From: Ylistrum balloti
Lineage: Eukaryota
DNA: 64,000 nt
Direction of reading: 5' to 3'
NCBI RefSeq assembly: GCF_031769215.1
Contig: NW_026781951.1
Span: 496,001 to 560,000 of the forward strand
Shown here: one piece after another, positions 3,301-25,900 of the stretch
Layout: the number at the start of each line of letters is the position of its first letter
Position numbering within the stretch: the first letter of the stretch is position 1
Program-made: the position numbers

Positions 3301-6300
3301 CTCGTTGTATACATTGTTCTCATTTGAGAACGTGACATTACTTACTCTAGTTGATCTAGGTTTACATGGCAGGCGTCTCCATGTAAATCTTTCTCTTTCT
3401 CATATTTTGTTTTCACTAAATTTCAGCTTAGATTATAGGTATGGTGATATGTTGGCATTTCCTTGATTTTCTGCCACAAACAGTCTCGATTAACGATGAT
3501 GATATAAAGCGACTAAATGTGGTCCAGATAGTTTTTTTTTTCCGGCGGAAGCCACTTTGTTTGTTTGTCAGTATATCGTGTACTCCTAACCATTAGTGTA
3601 AATTTTACATTGAATGGATAATAATGACATTCCAAAGTAGCTGAGAGGGACTGTGGGATCTTTGGTGTCCGACTTAGGAATTTGTCGTATTGATACACAT
3701 GACCAGTCACGTGATATCTAGTTTTACCCTTGACCAGTCACGTGGTATATATAGTTTTGCCTTTGACCAGTCACGTGGTATCTAGTTTTGTCTTGTATAC
3801 AGCGACTTTCACCTCCTATCCTTGTAATTACGGAGTAAGATATAATGTCCAAGGGATGACCCAGACTGACGGCGTCATCCGTCAGACATTTCAGTTGTTT
3901 ACTTGGTTTCCTTGTAAACCTCGACAGAACAGATAAGTCGTATCAAACACAAGCCTGTTACTGATTTGACAAGTACTGCGATTTTTAGTCTCAAATCAAA
4001 ATGTGTGTCACAGTCCTTATTGTACACTTTTACCTTAAGAACTAAACGTGATAATGTATCGTATGTATAATCGATTTAAAAAAAACACATTCCACCAACA
4101 TAGAATGATAATACGGCTTGTAATACACTGAATACTACTGAGTACTGCCGAACATAAGAATCGGAAGAGTGAAATGCGCATGTCAGAAATATATAAATAA
4201 AGTTGCAAAGCAGGTAAACTTTTTACGGAAAAGCATAGAAACTTCTTACAAATGACAAGTTATTTTTCAATAAGTAATCAGTTTATGTTTATTCTAAAAT
4301 AATTGCATCGATTGTTTAAAACATTTTTGAAACTTTTATTAGACACAATTTATTGATGTCAAGATGATTGTGAAGCATGCATACTGGCTTGGTTAGTGTA
4401 GAGCGCGGACAGAACTCGATTTCAATATTTGGTTACATAAGCTTGTTGTAATTTATCGTTTAGTAATAAAGTCGACTAAAACATTTCTGTAAAACATAAA
4501 TCACACTTTTGCTACATATATGAAGTAAATACCGTTGTTTTAATGACGGTCAGATCAACCTATTGTTGCCATGGAAAGGTGTGTTGTCAATGACGTTTCT
4601 GCCGCTTTAGTTGTACCTTTTTAATGGCTTGGAAGTGAATTTAGAGTTATTTTATGTACTACGTCATTATACGAGTGAAATATGTAGGTAGTAACTTTAC
4701 ATTTTAATTTCGGCTAGCAGTATCGGTAACGGGATACCGTTTATTGGATATAGTAACGCCTCCATCCTGCTCCTCTCTCCTTATATGGAAATATGAAATC
4801 AATAGGAGTTATTTCCCTTGCATCAACCAAGCTATATATTCAATCGTGGATAGATTAACCCGTTGATTAGGACACATAAATCAAATTCTGTCAAATGATT
4901 CTTTTTAGTAGAAGTGTTTCATGGTTAAGGTTTTGTGCAGTTTTTTAAAAGTTACTTCAAGATATTTGGATCTAATCTTGTAATAGTGAAATATACTTGA
5001 AACAAATGTATACTGTACCTTTTCTTTGTCTTTCACATCTGTTTATTGGCTTGATAATGTTTCGTTTTCTACTTTTTGTCGTACTCTTGATTTTTCCTAT
5101 AAAATGGTAGGAAGATACAAACTCAAGGAAAGTGTTTATTTTTATCCTATCCTTTTAACCAGTACGGTACAACTAAAGACATAATCTTCACGTGTTGCCA
5201 CACTGTTATGGTGTTGCTAGAATGTTTTCAGAAATTCCATCTTTTGTAAAATTACATTGTAGCTCTTTTTCATTACAAGTTCTGAAATGTTTCTTTCTTA
5301 TAAGTAAAAATAATACAAAATCTGTTTCTAGTCAATCAAATATGCCAGTAATCTATTCTTTAATTGTTTATTTAATTGTTTGTTTATTTGTTTATTTATT
5401 GCTCTTTTGTGTTTTCTACTTATGCTCTTTTCGTTATTCCAATACTGATCTAATATTACAACCCACGTTTATGTTTGGTGAGATAAGTAAGAGAAATGGC
5501 GTTAGAAATCTGTGAACCTACCATCAACATCGCCAGTATATTGTTGTGATGCACAATGAATAATCACGATCGCTACCTACCGTATGACGACCTGTTTGCT
5601 ATATGATCCCAGTCCCACATGGTCAACACTGGAAAGGTCAGCGATCACTTAAGTGTATCCTTGATTGTCAATGCTCGCTCATGTTGATCGTAAATGTATA
5701 ATACGAAGAACCGCTGATAATGTAACTTTACATAAACAGATCTAAATTACAACTCTATCAGCTGATTAGAACAAAGCTTTTGTTATTGTAATCAGACAAT
5801 CAATTCAATGGAACTCACCTCGATACATATGTATTTAAACCATACACGATGGTCACTTGTAAACCAATAGATGCGGCTGTCCTTTCACAATGCTTGCCAA
5901 TACAAGATTATCTGTTGTTTTTGATGCTTATGGTAGCGGACACACAGTTTTGGACTAACGTAGTGATTTAATTGTAACACAATGTTGAGAAGAACGTATC
6001 TACTGAGCTTCATACTTGTTATAACGATGTCACTGTGCTTTCACGTTTATTTTTCAAATCAAAAGGATAGCGGCAAAATAGAATTCTTGGGGAAAGGAAT
6101 GGATCGGTATGTATGAAATAAGCATTAGAAAGTCAACAACACATCACTAACAATACGCCCGAATCACAGCACACATCGCTTTCATTCTGATTAGTGCTTT
6201 TAACATTACCGATATCACCTGTTGGTGTTGTTGTCTGTCTAATGATTTTAACATTACCGATATCACCTGTTGGTGTTGTTGTCTGTCTGATGATTTTAAC

Positions 6301-22900: not shown

Positions 22901-25900
22901 ACTTAAGCCCTTAGCATCACTGACGAGCCCTGGAAGAACGAAGCAGATGTATGATGTAGCATCACTGACGAGTCCTAGAAGAATGAAGCGTTGTACGATG
23001 TAACATCACTGACGAGCCCTCGAAGAACGAAGCAGTTGTATGATGTAACATGACTGACGAGCCCTAGAAGAACGAAGCAGTTGTATGATGTAACATCACT
23101 GACGAGTCCTAGAAGAATGAAGCAGTTGTACGATGTAACATCACTGACAAGCCCTAGAAGAATGAAGCAGTTGTATGATGTAGCATCACTGACGAGTCCT
23201 AGAAGAATGAAGCGTTGTACGATGTAACATCACTGACAAGCCCTAGAAGAATGAAGCAGTTGTACGATGTAACATCACTGACAAGCCCTAGAAGAATGAA
23301 GCAGTTGTATGATGTAACATCACTGACGAGTCCTAGAAGAATGAAGCAGTTCTATGATGCTGTTCGATTCATTGTTCGCTTTAATGTACCTAGGACTAAA
23401 TTTGTGTTAAGAATTGGTTTTCACGTTTTGTCTTTTGCATAACTTTAGAAAATAGTATTGTCTTATTTACACTTTATTTACAGGTCGTATGGCGACAATT
23501 CGCATCAAAACGGCTCCTTAACGAAGCACGATATGCAAGTAAAAAAGTCACGTGACTTACTACTGGTGGGTTATTTGGGAGGTGGAACAACGTTTATGGG
23601 AGATATTCTTGGTTCAAGGAATAATAGCTTCTACTTGTATGAACCACTTTACTCTATGGCGCAGTTTGGATATTTCAAGCCTGGACACCAGTGCAGTATG
23701 ACGGGGGGATGCAGGTTCGTTAATAACAGCTTATATGAAAATAATAATGATATCACATGTAACCGATCTTCAAAGCTATATCTTTTAAGGTAAAAAGTTA
23801 ATACGAAATATATCCTTCCAGGAATTAATCAACATTGAAAATCAGAACTTCATTTCTTAGCTTATGTCAGAAATTCCATTTCCAGCAGCAGTTACGTTTA
23901 GATATTTAAAGTTAATTAATCATTTTTTTTAATTATGAAACATTCCTTTAGCTCATGTCTTCGTTACGTGCTGCAGTGTTTTCCATATCACATATCCTTC
24001 AGTCATACAATGATTGTGTACTTCCCTACTCAGTTTCCATTAGCGATATATTTCTCCTTCATAATGCCTGTCATAGTCTCAAATTAACACGTGAAACAGA
24101 AACTGCGAAACATGCACAGGTTACGGAATCATCCGAGCATGCTTGTGGTTACAAGTTCACTTTCGTTTATTTTCAGTTCGATAATACCAAGCTAGGTAAA
24201 CACAGACGTGACTGTACTGTGTTTTAACTACGAGAAATGAACAAATTTCTTTTCGCTTCTTTTTTCATCTTACAGGAAGAATGCTCAGATTGATGACCAC
24301 GTTCTAAAAATAGTTCATGCTATATTCAGCTGTGAGTATGACCATTTCAACCACAATATCACCTGGTGGCAAACTGCTGCCTCTAAAATATCCAATGATC
24401 AAAGATGGGAACAGTCTTTTCTGGGTTGTAATGTAAATTGTTCGAGAAAGTATTTGAGTTTATGTTCACAACATGGTTCAATTGTTAGCAAAATGCCGAG
24501 GATAAGCATCGGCTTAGCCTCAAAACTTTTGAACAGGTTACCGAACTTGAAAATAGTTCATCTTTTGAGAGATCCTAGAGCTATCATGAACTCGAGGAAA
24601 AAATATGACTGGACCCCTGTCCCAAGTGGTGCCATATCATTATGTTACAAAATGTTCGATGATGTTCTTGAAGCGGAAAAAGTGAAAACAGCTTATCCCA
24701 CCAGGCTGTATACCGTATATTACGAAGATATGGTCATGGAACCTCTTGAAACATTTGAGAAAATCTACAACTTTACGGGCTATAATTTCGATGCAAATGA
24801 AAAAACTCGAATCCTTGATAAGATGCAAAATTCTACGAGAATAGCAAAGGCTTGGAGAAACGGTATAGACGATAAAATCTTGAGGGAAACCAACAAAGCG
24901 TGCACTCGATTATATCCGCGACTAGGATACCCACAAATTTCGAATTTATTAGAAATCAAAAACATGAGCATTCCACTAAGAAATAAAGTAATCGGGTAAA
25001 GTCTTTCAAATATCTCTTTAACGTTTTGGCCACAGATGTAACACAGTCAAAGCTACAGTTGACTATGGGTAAATACTGTTCCTCAGTCCATTGTTTTATG
25101 AGTATAAAGTGAAAACTCGCTGAAAGACCACCAAAATTGTGACCACTTTTACTTTTAAGGTCAATTTTGATAGTTGCATGGATCAGTCTCGCATTGAATT
25201 TGACTTCACAACCTAATCAGACCAATGACCAGTCACAAAAATTCCCAAAAGTACCTGGTGTGTAATGCATTCCATCGCGTACAGATGGTAGTGGTTATTT
25301 AGTTGTATCTAAGGGTCAAACAGGCTTCCAAGATATACTTACTGTAGGTATGACGCAGTTATATTAATAGACTGTTTTTATTGATTGAAAATATGGGCAA
25401 AAGTTACCATAATCGGGAATTGTCTCTTTTTGGTTGCACCAAATATATTGCCCAGACAGTTTCGCCGGCGAGTCCTTTTACCCAAGCATATATCACTAAT
25501 CTGATCACGTCAATAGAAACTGCATTCAATATAATGAAAAGAGATAGGTGGGGTCAGTTTTTTTTAAAGATTTATTGTGTAAAACTGGGTTCATTTGATC
25601 GATTAACCCTAATCGAAAATCTGGCTTATCATAGCTTATATACAACGATTTACATCAGCATAAGGTTGTAAGTAGAAGCAAATCTTTTCACAAGATGGCC
25701 AATGCAATCATAGGTTTTAAGGAGATAACCTTTGATAAAGTGCCTCATTAACATTCATGTGTAAATGATGTCACTGAAACAATGCAACATAAGAGGATAT
25801 TGGAAAATAAAATGGAATTGCTAATTACGTAACATATACAGCCTCTGCTTTGTAAGGATAGTCTCTCCTATCTATGCTTAATATGTGAAAACGAAACTCA

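What the first reader, a model, noticed from the sequence alone, without database searches (positions are those of the whole stretch)
5982..24999. Three tandem sulfotransferase paralogues all lack the basic residue of the 5'-PSB loop
Seen: exon 2 reads GYLGGGTS (A), GYLGGGTS (B) and GYLGGGTT (C), while YEP, the 3'-PB RDPR...SR and YED are intact and all three ORFs are complete. Knowledge: Golgi CHST/GlcNAc6ST enzymes have a (Y/W)RSGSS-type loop whose Arg (Lys in cytosolic SULTs) contacts the PAPS 5'-phosphosulfate and is important for catalysis. Inference: the RS-to-GG change predates the duplications and has been retained, suggesting a pseudo-enzyme (glycan-binding or scaffold) or a different donor or chemistry.
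Basis: partly seen in the sequence, partly recalled or inferred. Interest (0 to 1): 0.65.

Follow-up and report, generated by a model that had tools for sequence, protein, structure and literature searches.

The report
Scallop sulfotransferase triplet missing catalytic arginine
Three neighbouring scallop genes of a sugar-sulfating enzyme family have all replaced one normally essential arginine with glycine yet are otherwise carefully preserved, so they are either non-catalytic binding proteins or enzymes that work in an unexpected way.

Summary
Three tandem, three-exon, + strand genes (A 5982-11454, B 13158-17884, C 22039-24999) of the scallop Ylistrum balloti belong to the carbohydrate 6-O-sulfotransferase (C6OST/CHST1-7-like) family. 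They read GYLGGGT[ST] where the family motif is RxGSSF.

The closest relatives (Pecten, Mizuhopecten, Argopecten, another Ylistrum paralogue) read GYLRGGTT, so the second Gly is older and sits beside an intact Arg.

Among 120 other family members with this column, 110 have Arg, 2 Lys and 8 something else. The best tree needs one change, but the A+B+C clade is only weakly supported.

After the loss the genes did not decay:
- dN/dS is about 0.2 at dS above 1.
- Branch lengths match those of the Arg-bearing orthologues.
- 58-60 of 63 family-conserved columns are kept, including the invariant Glu, the Lys and the whole 3'-phosphate motif.
- By contrast, 5 of the 8 other Arg-less relatives are degenerate.

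Published Ala mutants of this residue lose most or all activity in two other sulfotransferase families, and a human CHST6 variant at this Arg is found in corneal dystrophy.

Best reading (0.45): maintained pseudo-sulfotransferases that still bind PAPS and glycan. Main rival (0.35): still active by compensation.

The parts
5982..6106 (+). Copy A exon 1: ATG, short basic N-terminus and about 20 hydrophobic residues (type II signal anchor); ends CG|GT
10044..10277 (+). Copy A exon 2: beta-strand, 5'-PSB loop GYLGGGTS and YLYEPL
10138..10140 (+). Copy A: GGA codon, Gly in place of the motif Arg
10665..11454 (+). Copy A exon 3 with stop: sulfotransferase domain, SKIPR, RDPRAIMNSR, YED
13158..13273 (+). 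Copy B candidate exon 1: signal anchor, same phase and CG|GT end as A and C. The NCBI model uses a different, non-hydrophobic first exon from the ORF at 13593-13862
15157..15390 (+). Copy B exon 2: loop GYLGGGTS (15242-15265), Gly codon 15251-15253
17113..17884 (+). Copy B exon 3 with stop: sulfotransferase domain
22039..22166 (+). Copy C exon 1: signal anchor (MLRRTY... as in A); an in-frame ATG also lies at 22009
23484..23714 (+). Copy C exon 2: loop GYLGGGTT (23569-23592), Gly codon 23578-23580
24276..24999 (+). Copy C exon 3 with stop: sulfotransferase domain

Best explanation
Shown: A, B and C are three old tandem paralogues of a scallop-expanded branch of the C6OST (CHST1-7-like) Golgi sulfotransferase family. 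They lack the P-loop arginine of the 5'-phosphosulfate motif but have been kept under purifying selection, with every other conserved catalytic and PAPS-binding position intact. Inferred: without the side chain that contacts the 5'-phosphate/sulfate ester and acts as general acid or transition-state stabiliser, sulfuryl transfer is lost or slowed by orders of magnitude. The Gly-rich loop backbone, the Thr/Ser hydroxyls and the intact 3'-phosphate motif still hold PAPS or PAP, and the acceptor cleft still holds glycan. On this reading they act through binding, not transfer: luminal, membrane-anchored glycan- and nucleotide-binding proteins that mask acceptor sites, compete with active paralogues or partner with them. 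This resembles the pseudophosphatase STYX, in which one catalytic residue became Gly in an otherwise preserved pocket (STYX comparison recalled, not tested).
For: The Gly is real in all three copies, and neighbouring synonymous codons differ (Leu CTG/TTA/TTG), so there has been no recent gene conversion. The column is Arg or Lys in 112 of 120 other family proteins and Arg in 8 of 8 Arg-bearing scallop relatives compared. A profile alignment puts it on the P-loop Lys of SULT1A1/1A3. The closest solved folds are TPST2 and TPST1 (E 2e-8 to 6e-7). In tick TPST, Ala mutants of the P-loop Arg, the Glu base and the Lys were significantly reduced or below detection, and the paper reports substantially reduced activity for the corresponding human TPST2 mutants (PMC10951654, section 6 read). 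AtSOT18 Lys93Ala was below detection (PMC5482895, Table 1). CHST6 p.R50C is homozygous in macular corneal dystrophy patients (PMC11829787, Table 1) and lies in the 5'-PSB, residues 49-56 (PMC2642847). A 2024 review treats the PSB Lys/Arg as part of the working definition of a sulfotransferase (PMC11625862, passages). Selection: pairwise dN/dS is 0.18-0.22 with dS 1.2-1.6. Root-to-tip lengths are 0.57-0.73 against 0.55-0.57 for the Pecten Arg orthologues. A, B and C keep 58/63, 60/63 and 60/63 conserved columns, against a median of 0.951 in 110 Arg/Lys rows. E74, K170, R173, R196, R199, S204, Y247 and E248 are all kept. No A/B/C-specific basic residue was found at the loop end of a strand; the only shared gains are positions 44 and 185.
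Against: The same conservation fits an enzyme that still works. If only binding mattered, one might expect drift at the invariant Glu or at K170, and 5 of the 8 other Arg-less relatives do show such wider decay while A, B and C do not. Three copies diverging to about 57% identity looks like ordinary diversification of enzyme specificity. No activity, binding or expression data exist. Whether another side chain reaches the phosphate pocket was not tested. The mutagenesis cited comes from other sulfotransferase families, and the CHST6 evidence is genetic, not enzymatic.
Confidence: 0.45

Rival explanations
1. A, B and C are still active sulfotransferases. The role of the lost Arg is taken over by something else: the family's conserved Lys (K170 in copy C), backbone amides of the GGG loop, a bound cation or water, or a basic group from the substrate or a dimer partner. 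This would resemble WNK kinases, which place their catalytic Lys elsewhere (WNK comparison recalled).
For: Every other conserved catalytic and PAPS-binding column is kept at the level of Arg-bearing enzymes. dN/dS is about 0.2 and there is no rate increase. The phosphate-binding Thr and Thr/Ser of the loop are kept, whereas the degenerate Arg-less relatives P0016 and P0063 have lost one. The review notes that water may help stabilise the transition state in some enzymes (PMC11625862). In Mya arenaria, Asn variants carry an Arg four residues later (NSGSRF), which suggests the basic group can move within this family.
Against: No A/B/C-specific basic residue near the loop was found. K170 is not new, being present in 152 of 154 relatives. 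In tick TPST and AtSOT18 the Ala mutants of this residue lost most or all activity even though the other catalytic residues were present. Only 8 of 120 other family members lack Arg/Lys, and 5 of those look degenerate.
Confidence: 0.35
2. The three copies are unexpressed relics or pseudogenes on their way to decay.
For: A catalytic residue is missing. The NCBI models disagree with the simple three-exon reading at the ends: A has a truncated anchor and an extra C-terminal tail, and B and C have first exons without an anchor.
Against: All 9 exons are open with canonical, phase-matched splice sites. dN/dS is 0.18-0.22 although dS exceeds 1. 58-60 of 63 conserved columns are kept. The loop is identical in protein while 5 of its 8 codons differ among the copies.
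Confidence: 0.05
3. The fold has been re-used for a different donor or a different chemistry.
For: The sulfotransferase fold can support other chemistry: retinol dehydratase appears among the fold matches.
Against: The 3'-phosphate motif RDPRAIMNSR, the loop Gly/Thr and the YEP Glu are unchanged, so the pocket still looks built for a 3'-phosphoadenosine nucleotide. The other A/B/C-specific columns (44, 112, 185, 208, 253, 296) are variable across the family, so there is no sign of a remodelled site.
Confidence: 0.05
4. The Gly is a sequencing, assembly or annotation artefact.
For: None found.
Against: The same GGA codon stands in three copies that differ at flanking synonymous sites. The public protein record P0001 matches copy A's exon 3 at 100% identity over 92% of it, and the three Ylistrum records P0001-P0003 show the same loops.
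Confidence: 0.02

Closest known systems
Carbohydrate 6-O-sulfotransferases (C6OST; vertebrate CHST1-7: KSGal6ST, GlcNAc6STs, C6ST-1/2)
   Same: Pfam PF00685/PF13469 domain. 3'-PB motif RDPRxxxxSR present as RDPRAIMNSR. The loop keeps G-[ST]-[ST]-[FL]. The YEP Glu is invariant in 123 of 123 relatives. The genome encodes type II signal anchors. NCBI names the models CHST1/4-like. The motif definitions come from 10.1101/667535 (passages).
   Different: The Arg of RxGSSF is Gly. The genes belong to a bivalve-specific expansion, not to any vertebrate orthologue group. No acceptor is known.
Arg-bearing scallop co-orthologues (Pecten maximus P0004 and P0005) and the sister group P0006, P0007 and P0167
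   Same: 53-57% identity to the window copies. Together with A, B and C, P0004 and P0005 form a clade with 100/99 and 98/99 support. They share the loop GYL-GGTT apart from the one residue.
   Different: They read GYLRGGTT. The window copies read GYLGGGT[ST].
Tyrosylprotein sulfotransferases TPST1 and TPST2 (closest solved structures)
   Same: Best Foldseek matches (E 2e-8 to 6e-7, TM 0.47-0.57). Golgi type II enzymes with an Arg-type P-loop and a Glu base. The Arg-to-Glu spacing in TPST2 (R78 to E99, residue numbers from PMC10951654) equals the G53-to-E74 spacing in copy C.
   Different: 14-17% identity and a protein rather than glycan acceptor. TPSTs keep the Arg, and its Ala mutant loses most or all activity.
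Other Arg-less bivalve family members (P0016 Ylistrum, Met; P0063 Mactra, Gly; P0035 Dreissena and P0060/P0077/P0091 Mya, Asn; P0066/P0130 Mactra, His)
   Same: Same family, with a non-Arg/Lys residue at the same column.
   Different: 5 of these 8 have also lost other conserved positions (50-54 of 63 kept, at or below 4 of 110 Arg/Lys rows). A, B and C have not.
STYX pseudophosphatase and WNK kinases (analogies only, recalled, not tested)
   Same: STYX: a single catalytic residue replaced by Gly in an otherwise conserved pocket, giving a binding protein. WNK: a kinase thought dead for lack of a Lys that supplies it from elsewhere.
   Different: Unrelated folds. They only illustrate the two possible outcomes.

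Membership tests
C6OST / CHST1-7-like carbohydrate 6-O-sulfotransferases | Sulfotransferase domain PF00685 | tested here: met
   Exon 3 of A, B and C scores 36.3, 38.3 and 37.5 bits (cut-off 22), and PF13469 scores 45.9-48.4 bits (cut-off 27).
C6OST / CHST1-7-like carbohydrate 6-O-sulfotransferases | 5'-PSB motif RxGSSF (10.1101/667535) | tested here: not met
   A, B and C read G-G-G-T-[ST]-[LF]. The Arg is missing and the rest of the motif is conservatively kept.
C6OST / CHST1-7-like carbohydrate 6-O-sulfotransferases | 3'-PB motif RDPRxxxxSR | tested here: met
   RDPRAIMNSR in all three copies. In relatives: R196 154/154, R199 151/154, S204 153/155.
C6OST / CHST1-7-like carbohydrate 6-O-sulfotransferases | Type II Golgi membrane topology | tested here: inconclusive
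   In-phase signal-anchor first exons exist for all three copies, but the NCBI models lack or truncate them. No transcript data were available.
C6OST / CHST1-7-like carbohydrate 6-O-sulfotransferases | 6-O-sulfation of Gal, GalNAc or GlcNAc from PAPS | not testable with these tools
   Needs an enzyme assay.
PAPS-dependent sulfotransferase as defined in PMC11625862 | Conserved PSB-loop Lys or Arg | tested here: not met
   Gly at the column that aligns to the Lys of YPKSGTTW in SULT1A1/1A3.
PAPS-dependent sulfotransferase as defined in PMC11625862 | Ser on the PB helix | tested here: met
   S204 (copy C numbering) lies on helix 198-207.
PAPS-dependent sulfotransferase as defined in PMC11625862 | Strand-loop-helix and central beta-sheet fold | tested here: met
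   Model pLDDT 86.3: strand 45-49, loop 50-55, helix 56-64. All listed PDB fold matches are entries of the sulfotransferase fold.
Pseudoenzyme (enzyme fold, key catalytic residue lost, still under selection) | Key catalytic residue absent | tested here: met
   with the residue's role taken.
Pseudoenzyme (enzyme fold, key catalytic residue lost, still under selection) | Maintained by purifying selection | tested here: met
   dN/dS 0.18-0.22; 58-60 of 63 conserved columns kept.
Pseudoenzyme (enzyme fold, key catalytic residue lost, still under selection) | Lack of catalytic activity | not testable with these tools
   Needs an assay. This is the open point between the best explanation and its main rival.

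The most novel reading that the evidence does not exclude
A, B and C are fully working Golgi sulfotransferases that catalyse PAPS-dependent sulfation without any basic residue in the 5'-phosphosulfate loop. That residue is currently treated as part of the definition of the enzyme class. This would imply an alternative way of stabilising the leaving group, for example a GGG anion hole plus the second Lys, a cation or water.
Probability: 0.3. Interest if true: 0.7.

Novelty: new variant of a known kind. Interest (0 to 1): 0.45.

Why it matters
The P-loop Lys/Arg is treated as universal and essential in PAPS-dependent sulfotransferases. Here a natural triplet has lived without it for a long time (dS above 1) under normal constraint. 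One reading gives a clean natural example of a pseudo-sulfotransferase, a class I found named only in passing in the searches I ran. It would be a likely regulator or lectin-like reader of Golgi glycans in a lineage with a very large C6OST expansion. The other reading shows the residue is dispensable in some contexts, which would change how sulfotransferases are recognised and annotated. In both cases, homology-based labels such as 'carbohydrate sulfotransferase 1/4-like' should not be taken as evidence of activity for these genes. The contrast between intact and degenerate Arg-less paralogues gives a ready-made comparative set for experiments.

Tried and rejected
1. A word-indexed search restricted to the exon-2 part of P0001 collected only 8 candidates and returned only the query. 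It missed even B and C, so it says nothing about how rare the loop is. It was replaced by the exhaustive profile search.
2. PDB sequence searches with single exons gave nothing significant. Exon 2 alone weakly resembled Walker-A loops of Lon and ABCB1 (E 0.37-0.5), which I treat as chance.
3. The first structure model, from 9 rows, was too poor to use (pLDDT 58, loop below 50).
4. I looked for a compensating basic residue. The only positions where A, B and C all have K/R/H and at most one relative does are 44 and 185. Both lie at the far ends of strands, and both columns are variable family-wide. Other A/B/C-specific changes (112 K/R to Q/H, 208 L to Y, 253 to D/E, 296) also fall in variable columns, so I rejected a coordinated remodelling of the site.
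5. Gene conversion as the reason for the shared Gly is rejected, because flanking synonymous sites differ and dS is above 1.
6. Paper look-ups that found nothing useful: PMC5562738 and PMC6272617 (no hits for the residue names), and PMC9356239 and PMC6094399 (passages not about this residue).
7. Literature searches for described pseudo-sulfotransferases or Arg-less mollusc C6OSTs listed no paper on the subject. PMC5106787 only names sulfotransferases in a list of enzyme classes.
8. Complex prediction, the protein atlas and the genome-contig scan were not used. No binding claim rests on a pair of proteins, the family is known, and genome contigs holds only bacteria and archaea.
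Full report
WHAT IS THERE. The region 5982-24999 holds three + strand genes with the same three-exon plan.

- Copy A: exon 1 5982-6106, exon 2 10044-10277, exon 3 10665-11454.
- Copy B: exon 1 13158-13273, exon 2 15157-15390, exon 3 17113-17884.
- Copy C: exon 1 22039-22166, exon 2 23484-23714, exon 3 24276-24999.

All introns have AG/GT borders. Every exon 1 ends CG|GT with two bases of a codon, every exon 2 starts with the third base and ends with two bases, and every exon 3 supplies the last one. 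Each exon 1 encodes a short basic N-terminus and about 20 hydrophobic residues, which is a type II signal anchor. tblastn with four relatives found six matches each, two exons in each of three copies, and nothing else in the 64 kb. Two N runs (30190-30320, 49465-49608) lie outside the finding and were left alone.

FAMILY. Window sequence was searched exon by exon. Exon 3 of each copy passes the Pfam cut-offs for Sulfotransfer_3 (45.9-48.4 bits against 27) and Sulfotransfer_1 (36.3-38.3 against 22). Exon 2 alone is too short: A and B matched 0 families, and C gave a sub-threshold 11.2-bit match to the first 25 positions of Sulfotransfer_1. A search with exon 3 of A found 13 proteins among 350 candidates. 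The best is a 100%-identical Ylistrum balloti record named 'carbohydrate sulfotransferase 4-like', followed by two more Ylistrum records on the same 1.75 Mb contig (these are B and C) and relatives in Pecten maximus, Mizuhopecten yessoensis and Argopecten irradians. Full-length comparisons below use these database records (P0001-P0003) as the source gave them. A preprint on this family defines it by PF00685, the 5'-PSB motif RxGSSF and the 3'-PB motif RDPRxxxxSR (10.1101/667535, passages).

THE OBSERVATION. The loops read GYLGGGTS (A, 10129-10152), GYLGGGTS (B, 15242-15265) and GYLGGGTT (C, 23569-23592). YLYEPL, RDPRAIMNSR and YED are intact. In an alignment with six full-length relatives the loop column is Gly in A, B and C and Arg in 6 of 6 relatives, which read GYLRGGTT, and the rest of the loop is invariant. 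So the change specific to the triplet is R to G only. The Gly at the next position is older: it is present in 22 of 121 relatives, including all Arg-bearing scallop relatives. The Gly codon is GGA in all three copies, one base from AGA or CGA. Five of the loop's eight codons differ among the copies, and the neighbouring Leu is CTG/TTA/TTG, so recent gene conversion does not explain the shared Gly.

HOW UNUSUAL. A word-indexed search limited to the exon-2 part was uninformative: 8 candidates, and it missed even B and C. An exhaustive HMMER search with the family profile against 1.84 billion representatives found 5,969 proteins at E up to 1e-3, 2,615 up to 1e-10 and 273 up to 1e-30. I aligned all 160 proteins then in hand to the profile. 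37 were fragments without the loop. Of the other 123:

| Residue | Count | Proteins |
|---|---|---|
| Arg | 110 | |
| Lys | 2 | |
| Gly | 4 | A, B, C and P0063 |
| Asn | 4 | P0035, P0060, P0077, P0091 |
| His | 2 | P0066, P0130 |
| Met | 1 | P0016 |

. The eight other exceptions are all from bivalves: Ylistrum balloti (P0016, on another contig), Mactra antiquata, Dreissena polymorpha and Mya arenaria. A further alignment-based search returned 28 proteins among 5,047 candidates. The 13 new proteins from that search that contain the loop (15 new in all) all have Arg. Across the broad alignment, this Arg column is the only strongly conserved column where A, B and C jointly depart, apart from three changes shared with the Arg-bearing scallop subfamily.

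WHAT THE RESIDUE DOES. A profile of 101 family members aligned its loop YmRSGStf to YPKSGTTW of SULT1A3 and SULT1A1, so the column is the P-loop Lys of cytosolic sulfotransferases. No C6OST member has a solved structure in the PDB copy searched. A model of copy C built from the 101-row alignment is good (pLDDT 86.3, pTM 0.83), with strand 45-49, loop 50-55 and helix 56-64, and G53 at the Arg site. Its best PDB fold matches are TPST2, tick TPST and TPST1 (E 2e-8 to 6e-7, TM 0.47-0.57), followed only by other proteins of the sulfotransferase fold.

Published evidence on the residue:
- In tick TPST the P-loop Arg contacts the 5'-phosphate and is proposed as general acid, with a Glu base and a Lys. 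Ala mutants of each were strongly reduced or below detection, and the paper says the same holds for human TPST2 R78/E99/K158 (PMC10951654, section 6 read in full).
- The G53-to-E74 spacing in copy C equals the R78-to-E99 spacing in TPST2 (inference from numbering).
- AtSOT18 Lys93Ala was below detection on three substrates (PMC5482895, passages and Table 1).
- In human CHST6 the 5'-PSB is residues 49-56 (PMC2642847, passages). p.R50C occurs homozygously in macular corneal dystrophy, in 4 families (PMC11829787, Table 1). That R50 is the motif Arg follows from the numbering and is my inference.
- A 2024 review states that the sulfotransferase definition rests on the PSB Lys/Arg, the PB-helix Ser and the sheet architecture (PMC11625862, passages).

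WHAT HAPPENED AFTERWARDS. Pairwise Nei-Gojobori dN/dS among A, B and C is 0.18-0.22, with counts summed over exons 2 and 3 that were aligned separately. dS is 1.2-1.6, close to saturation, so the true ratio is probably lower.

In a 21-row tree, A, B and C group with the two Pecten Arg genes (100/99). A+B+C is a clade at 79/76. Root-to-tip lengths inside the group are 0.57, 0.69 and 0.73 against 0.55-0.57 for Pecten. A 17-row tree with added scallop relatives gives the same five-member clade (98/99), one change of state, and terminal branches like those of the one-per-species sister group (0.42-0.52). There, however, A+B+C has only 70/53 support. A tree joining A with the Pecten pair is not rejected (p-AU 0.395), while one joining B and C with the Pecten pair is marginal (p-AU 0.0415). 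A single loss before the triplication is therefore the simplest reading, not a proven one.

Of 63 columns that are at least 80% conserved among the 112 Arg/Lys-bearing rows (loop column left out), A keeps 58, B 60 and C 60. For the 110 Arg/Lys rows complete enough to score, the median is 0.951, the 5th percentile 0.869 and the minimum 0.833. By contrast P0016, P0035, P0060, P0063 and P0077 keep 50-54 of 63, at or below 4 of the 110 rows. P0066, P0130 (both His) and P0091 (Asn) are normal.

The retained set in A, B and C, with counts in relatives:

| Residue (copy C numbering) | Relatives with it |
|---|---|
| E74 | 123 of 123 |
| K170 | 152 of 154 |
| R173 | 152 of 154 |
| R196 | 154 of 154 |
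| R199 | 151 of 154 |
| S204 | 153 of 155 |
| Y247 | 141 of 156 |
| E248 | 150 of 156 |

COMPENSATION. I compared A, B and C with eight Arg-bearing scallop relatives. Six columns separate the two groups: 44, 53, 112, 208, 253 and 296. The only shared gains of a basic residue are 44 and 185. Apart from 53, all of these columns are variable family-wide, and 44 and 185 sit at the strand ends away from the loops. I found no candidate replacement for the Arg by sequence.

INTERPRETATION. Shown: these are real, old, selectively maintained genes that lack the P-loop Arg and keep everything else. Inferred: transfer is lost or greatly slowed while nucleotide and glycan binding persist, so they act through binding (0.45). 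The main rival is retained activity by some other means (0.35). The normal conservation of the Glu and Lys, which 5 of 8 other Arg-less relatives did not maintain, is the strongest argument for that rival. Decaying pseudogenes (0.05), a new donor or chemistry (0.05) and artefact (0.02) are poorly supported. Only an assay can decide.

NOVELTY. This is a new variant of a known family. Searches for described pseudo-sulfotransferases or Arg-less mollusc C6OSTs listed no paper on the subject. The library covers open-access papers and preprints only, and supplements were closed.

SURROUNDINGS. The introns and spacers carry large minisatellites. Elsewhere the window has an NHL-repeat ORF, an ApoL-like ORF and a flavin/NAD-binding exon, none related to the finding.

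Noticed in passing
P0060, P0077, P0091, P0163, P0164, P0165 (Mya arenaria proteins, not in the window): Six Mya arenaria paralogues have Asn at the Arg site but an Arg four residues later in the same loop (N[SG]GSRF instead of RSGSSF). The basic residue may have moved within the loop. P0091 keeps 59 of 63 conserved columns, while P0060 and P0077 keep 51.
   Followed up: partly
P0016 (Ylistrum balloti XP_060074624.1, another contig): A fourth Arg-less paralogue in the same species reads GYVMGGTVF. It has also lost a loop Thr/Ser, keeps only 52 of 63 conserved columns and sits on a long branch (1.87-2.19). It looks like a degenerate pseudoenzyme, unlike A, B and C.
   Followed up: partly
window 6337-8672; also 9344-10019, 18673-19606, 20282-20619, 22915-23359: Large minisatellites lie in the introns and spacers of the cluster. 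There are 48 copies of a 48-bp unit in intron 1 of A, which produces long spurious ORFs on both strands. Arrays of 63-bp and 45-bp units lie just upstream of exon 2 in A and C, and a 24-bp x 39 array lies between B and C.
   Followed up: partly
window 5982-6106, 11380-11454, 13158-13273, 13593-13862, 22039-22166: The NCBI models differ from the simple three-exon reading. A starts at an internal Met inside the anchor and splices out of exon 3 just after PLRLK to a 56-residue tail. B uses a non-hydrophobic first exon from the ORF at 13593-13862. C enters exon 1 downstream of the anchor. These may be alternative anchor-less isoforms or model errors.
   Followed up: no
window 37934-39034 (+), 45061-45789 (-), 2510-2971 (-): Unrelated neighbours: an open frame with NHL repeats (65.8 bits), an apolipoprotein-L-like frame (48.8 bits) and an exon with a flavin/NAD-binding Rossmann start. 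The GC skew is very strong at 36001-38000 (-0.50, GC 0.46).
   Followed up: no
window 10045-10275 (exon 2 of A): Searched alone against PDB sequences, the Arg-less loop region weakly resembles Walker-A P-loops (Lon protease, ABCB1; E 0.37-0.5). This is not significant and is probably just the Gly-rich strand-loop-helix.
   Followed up: no
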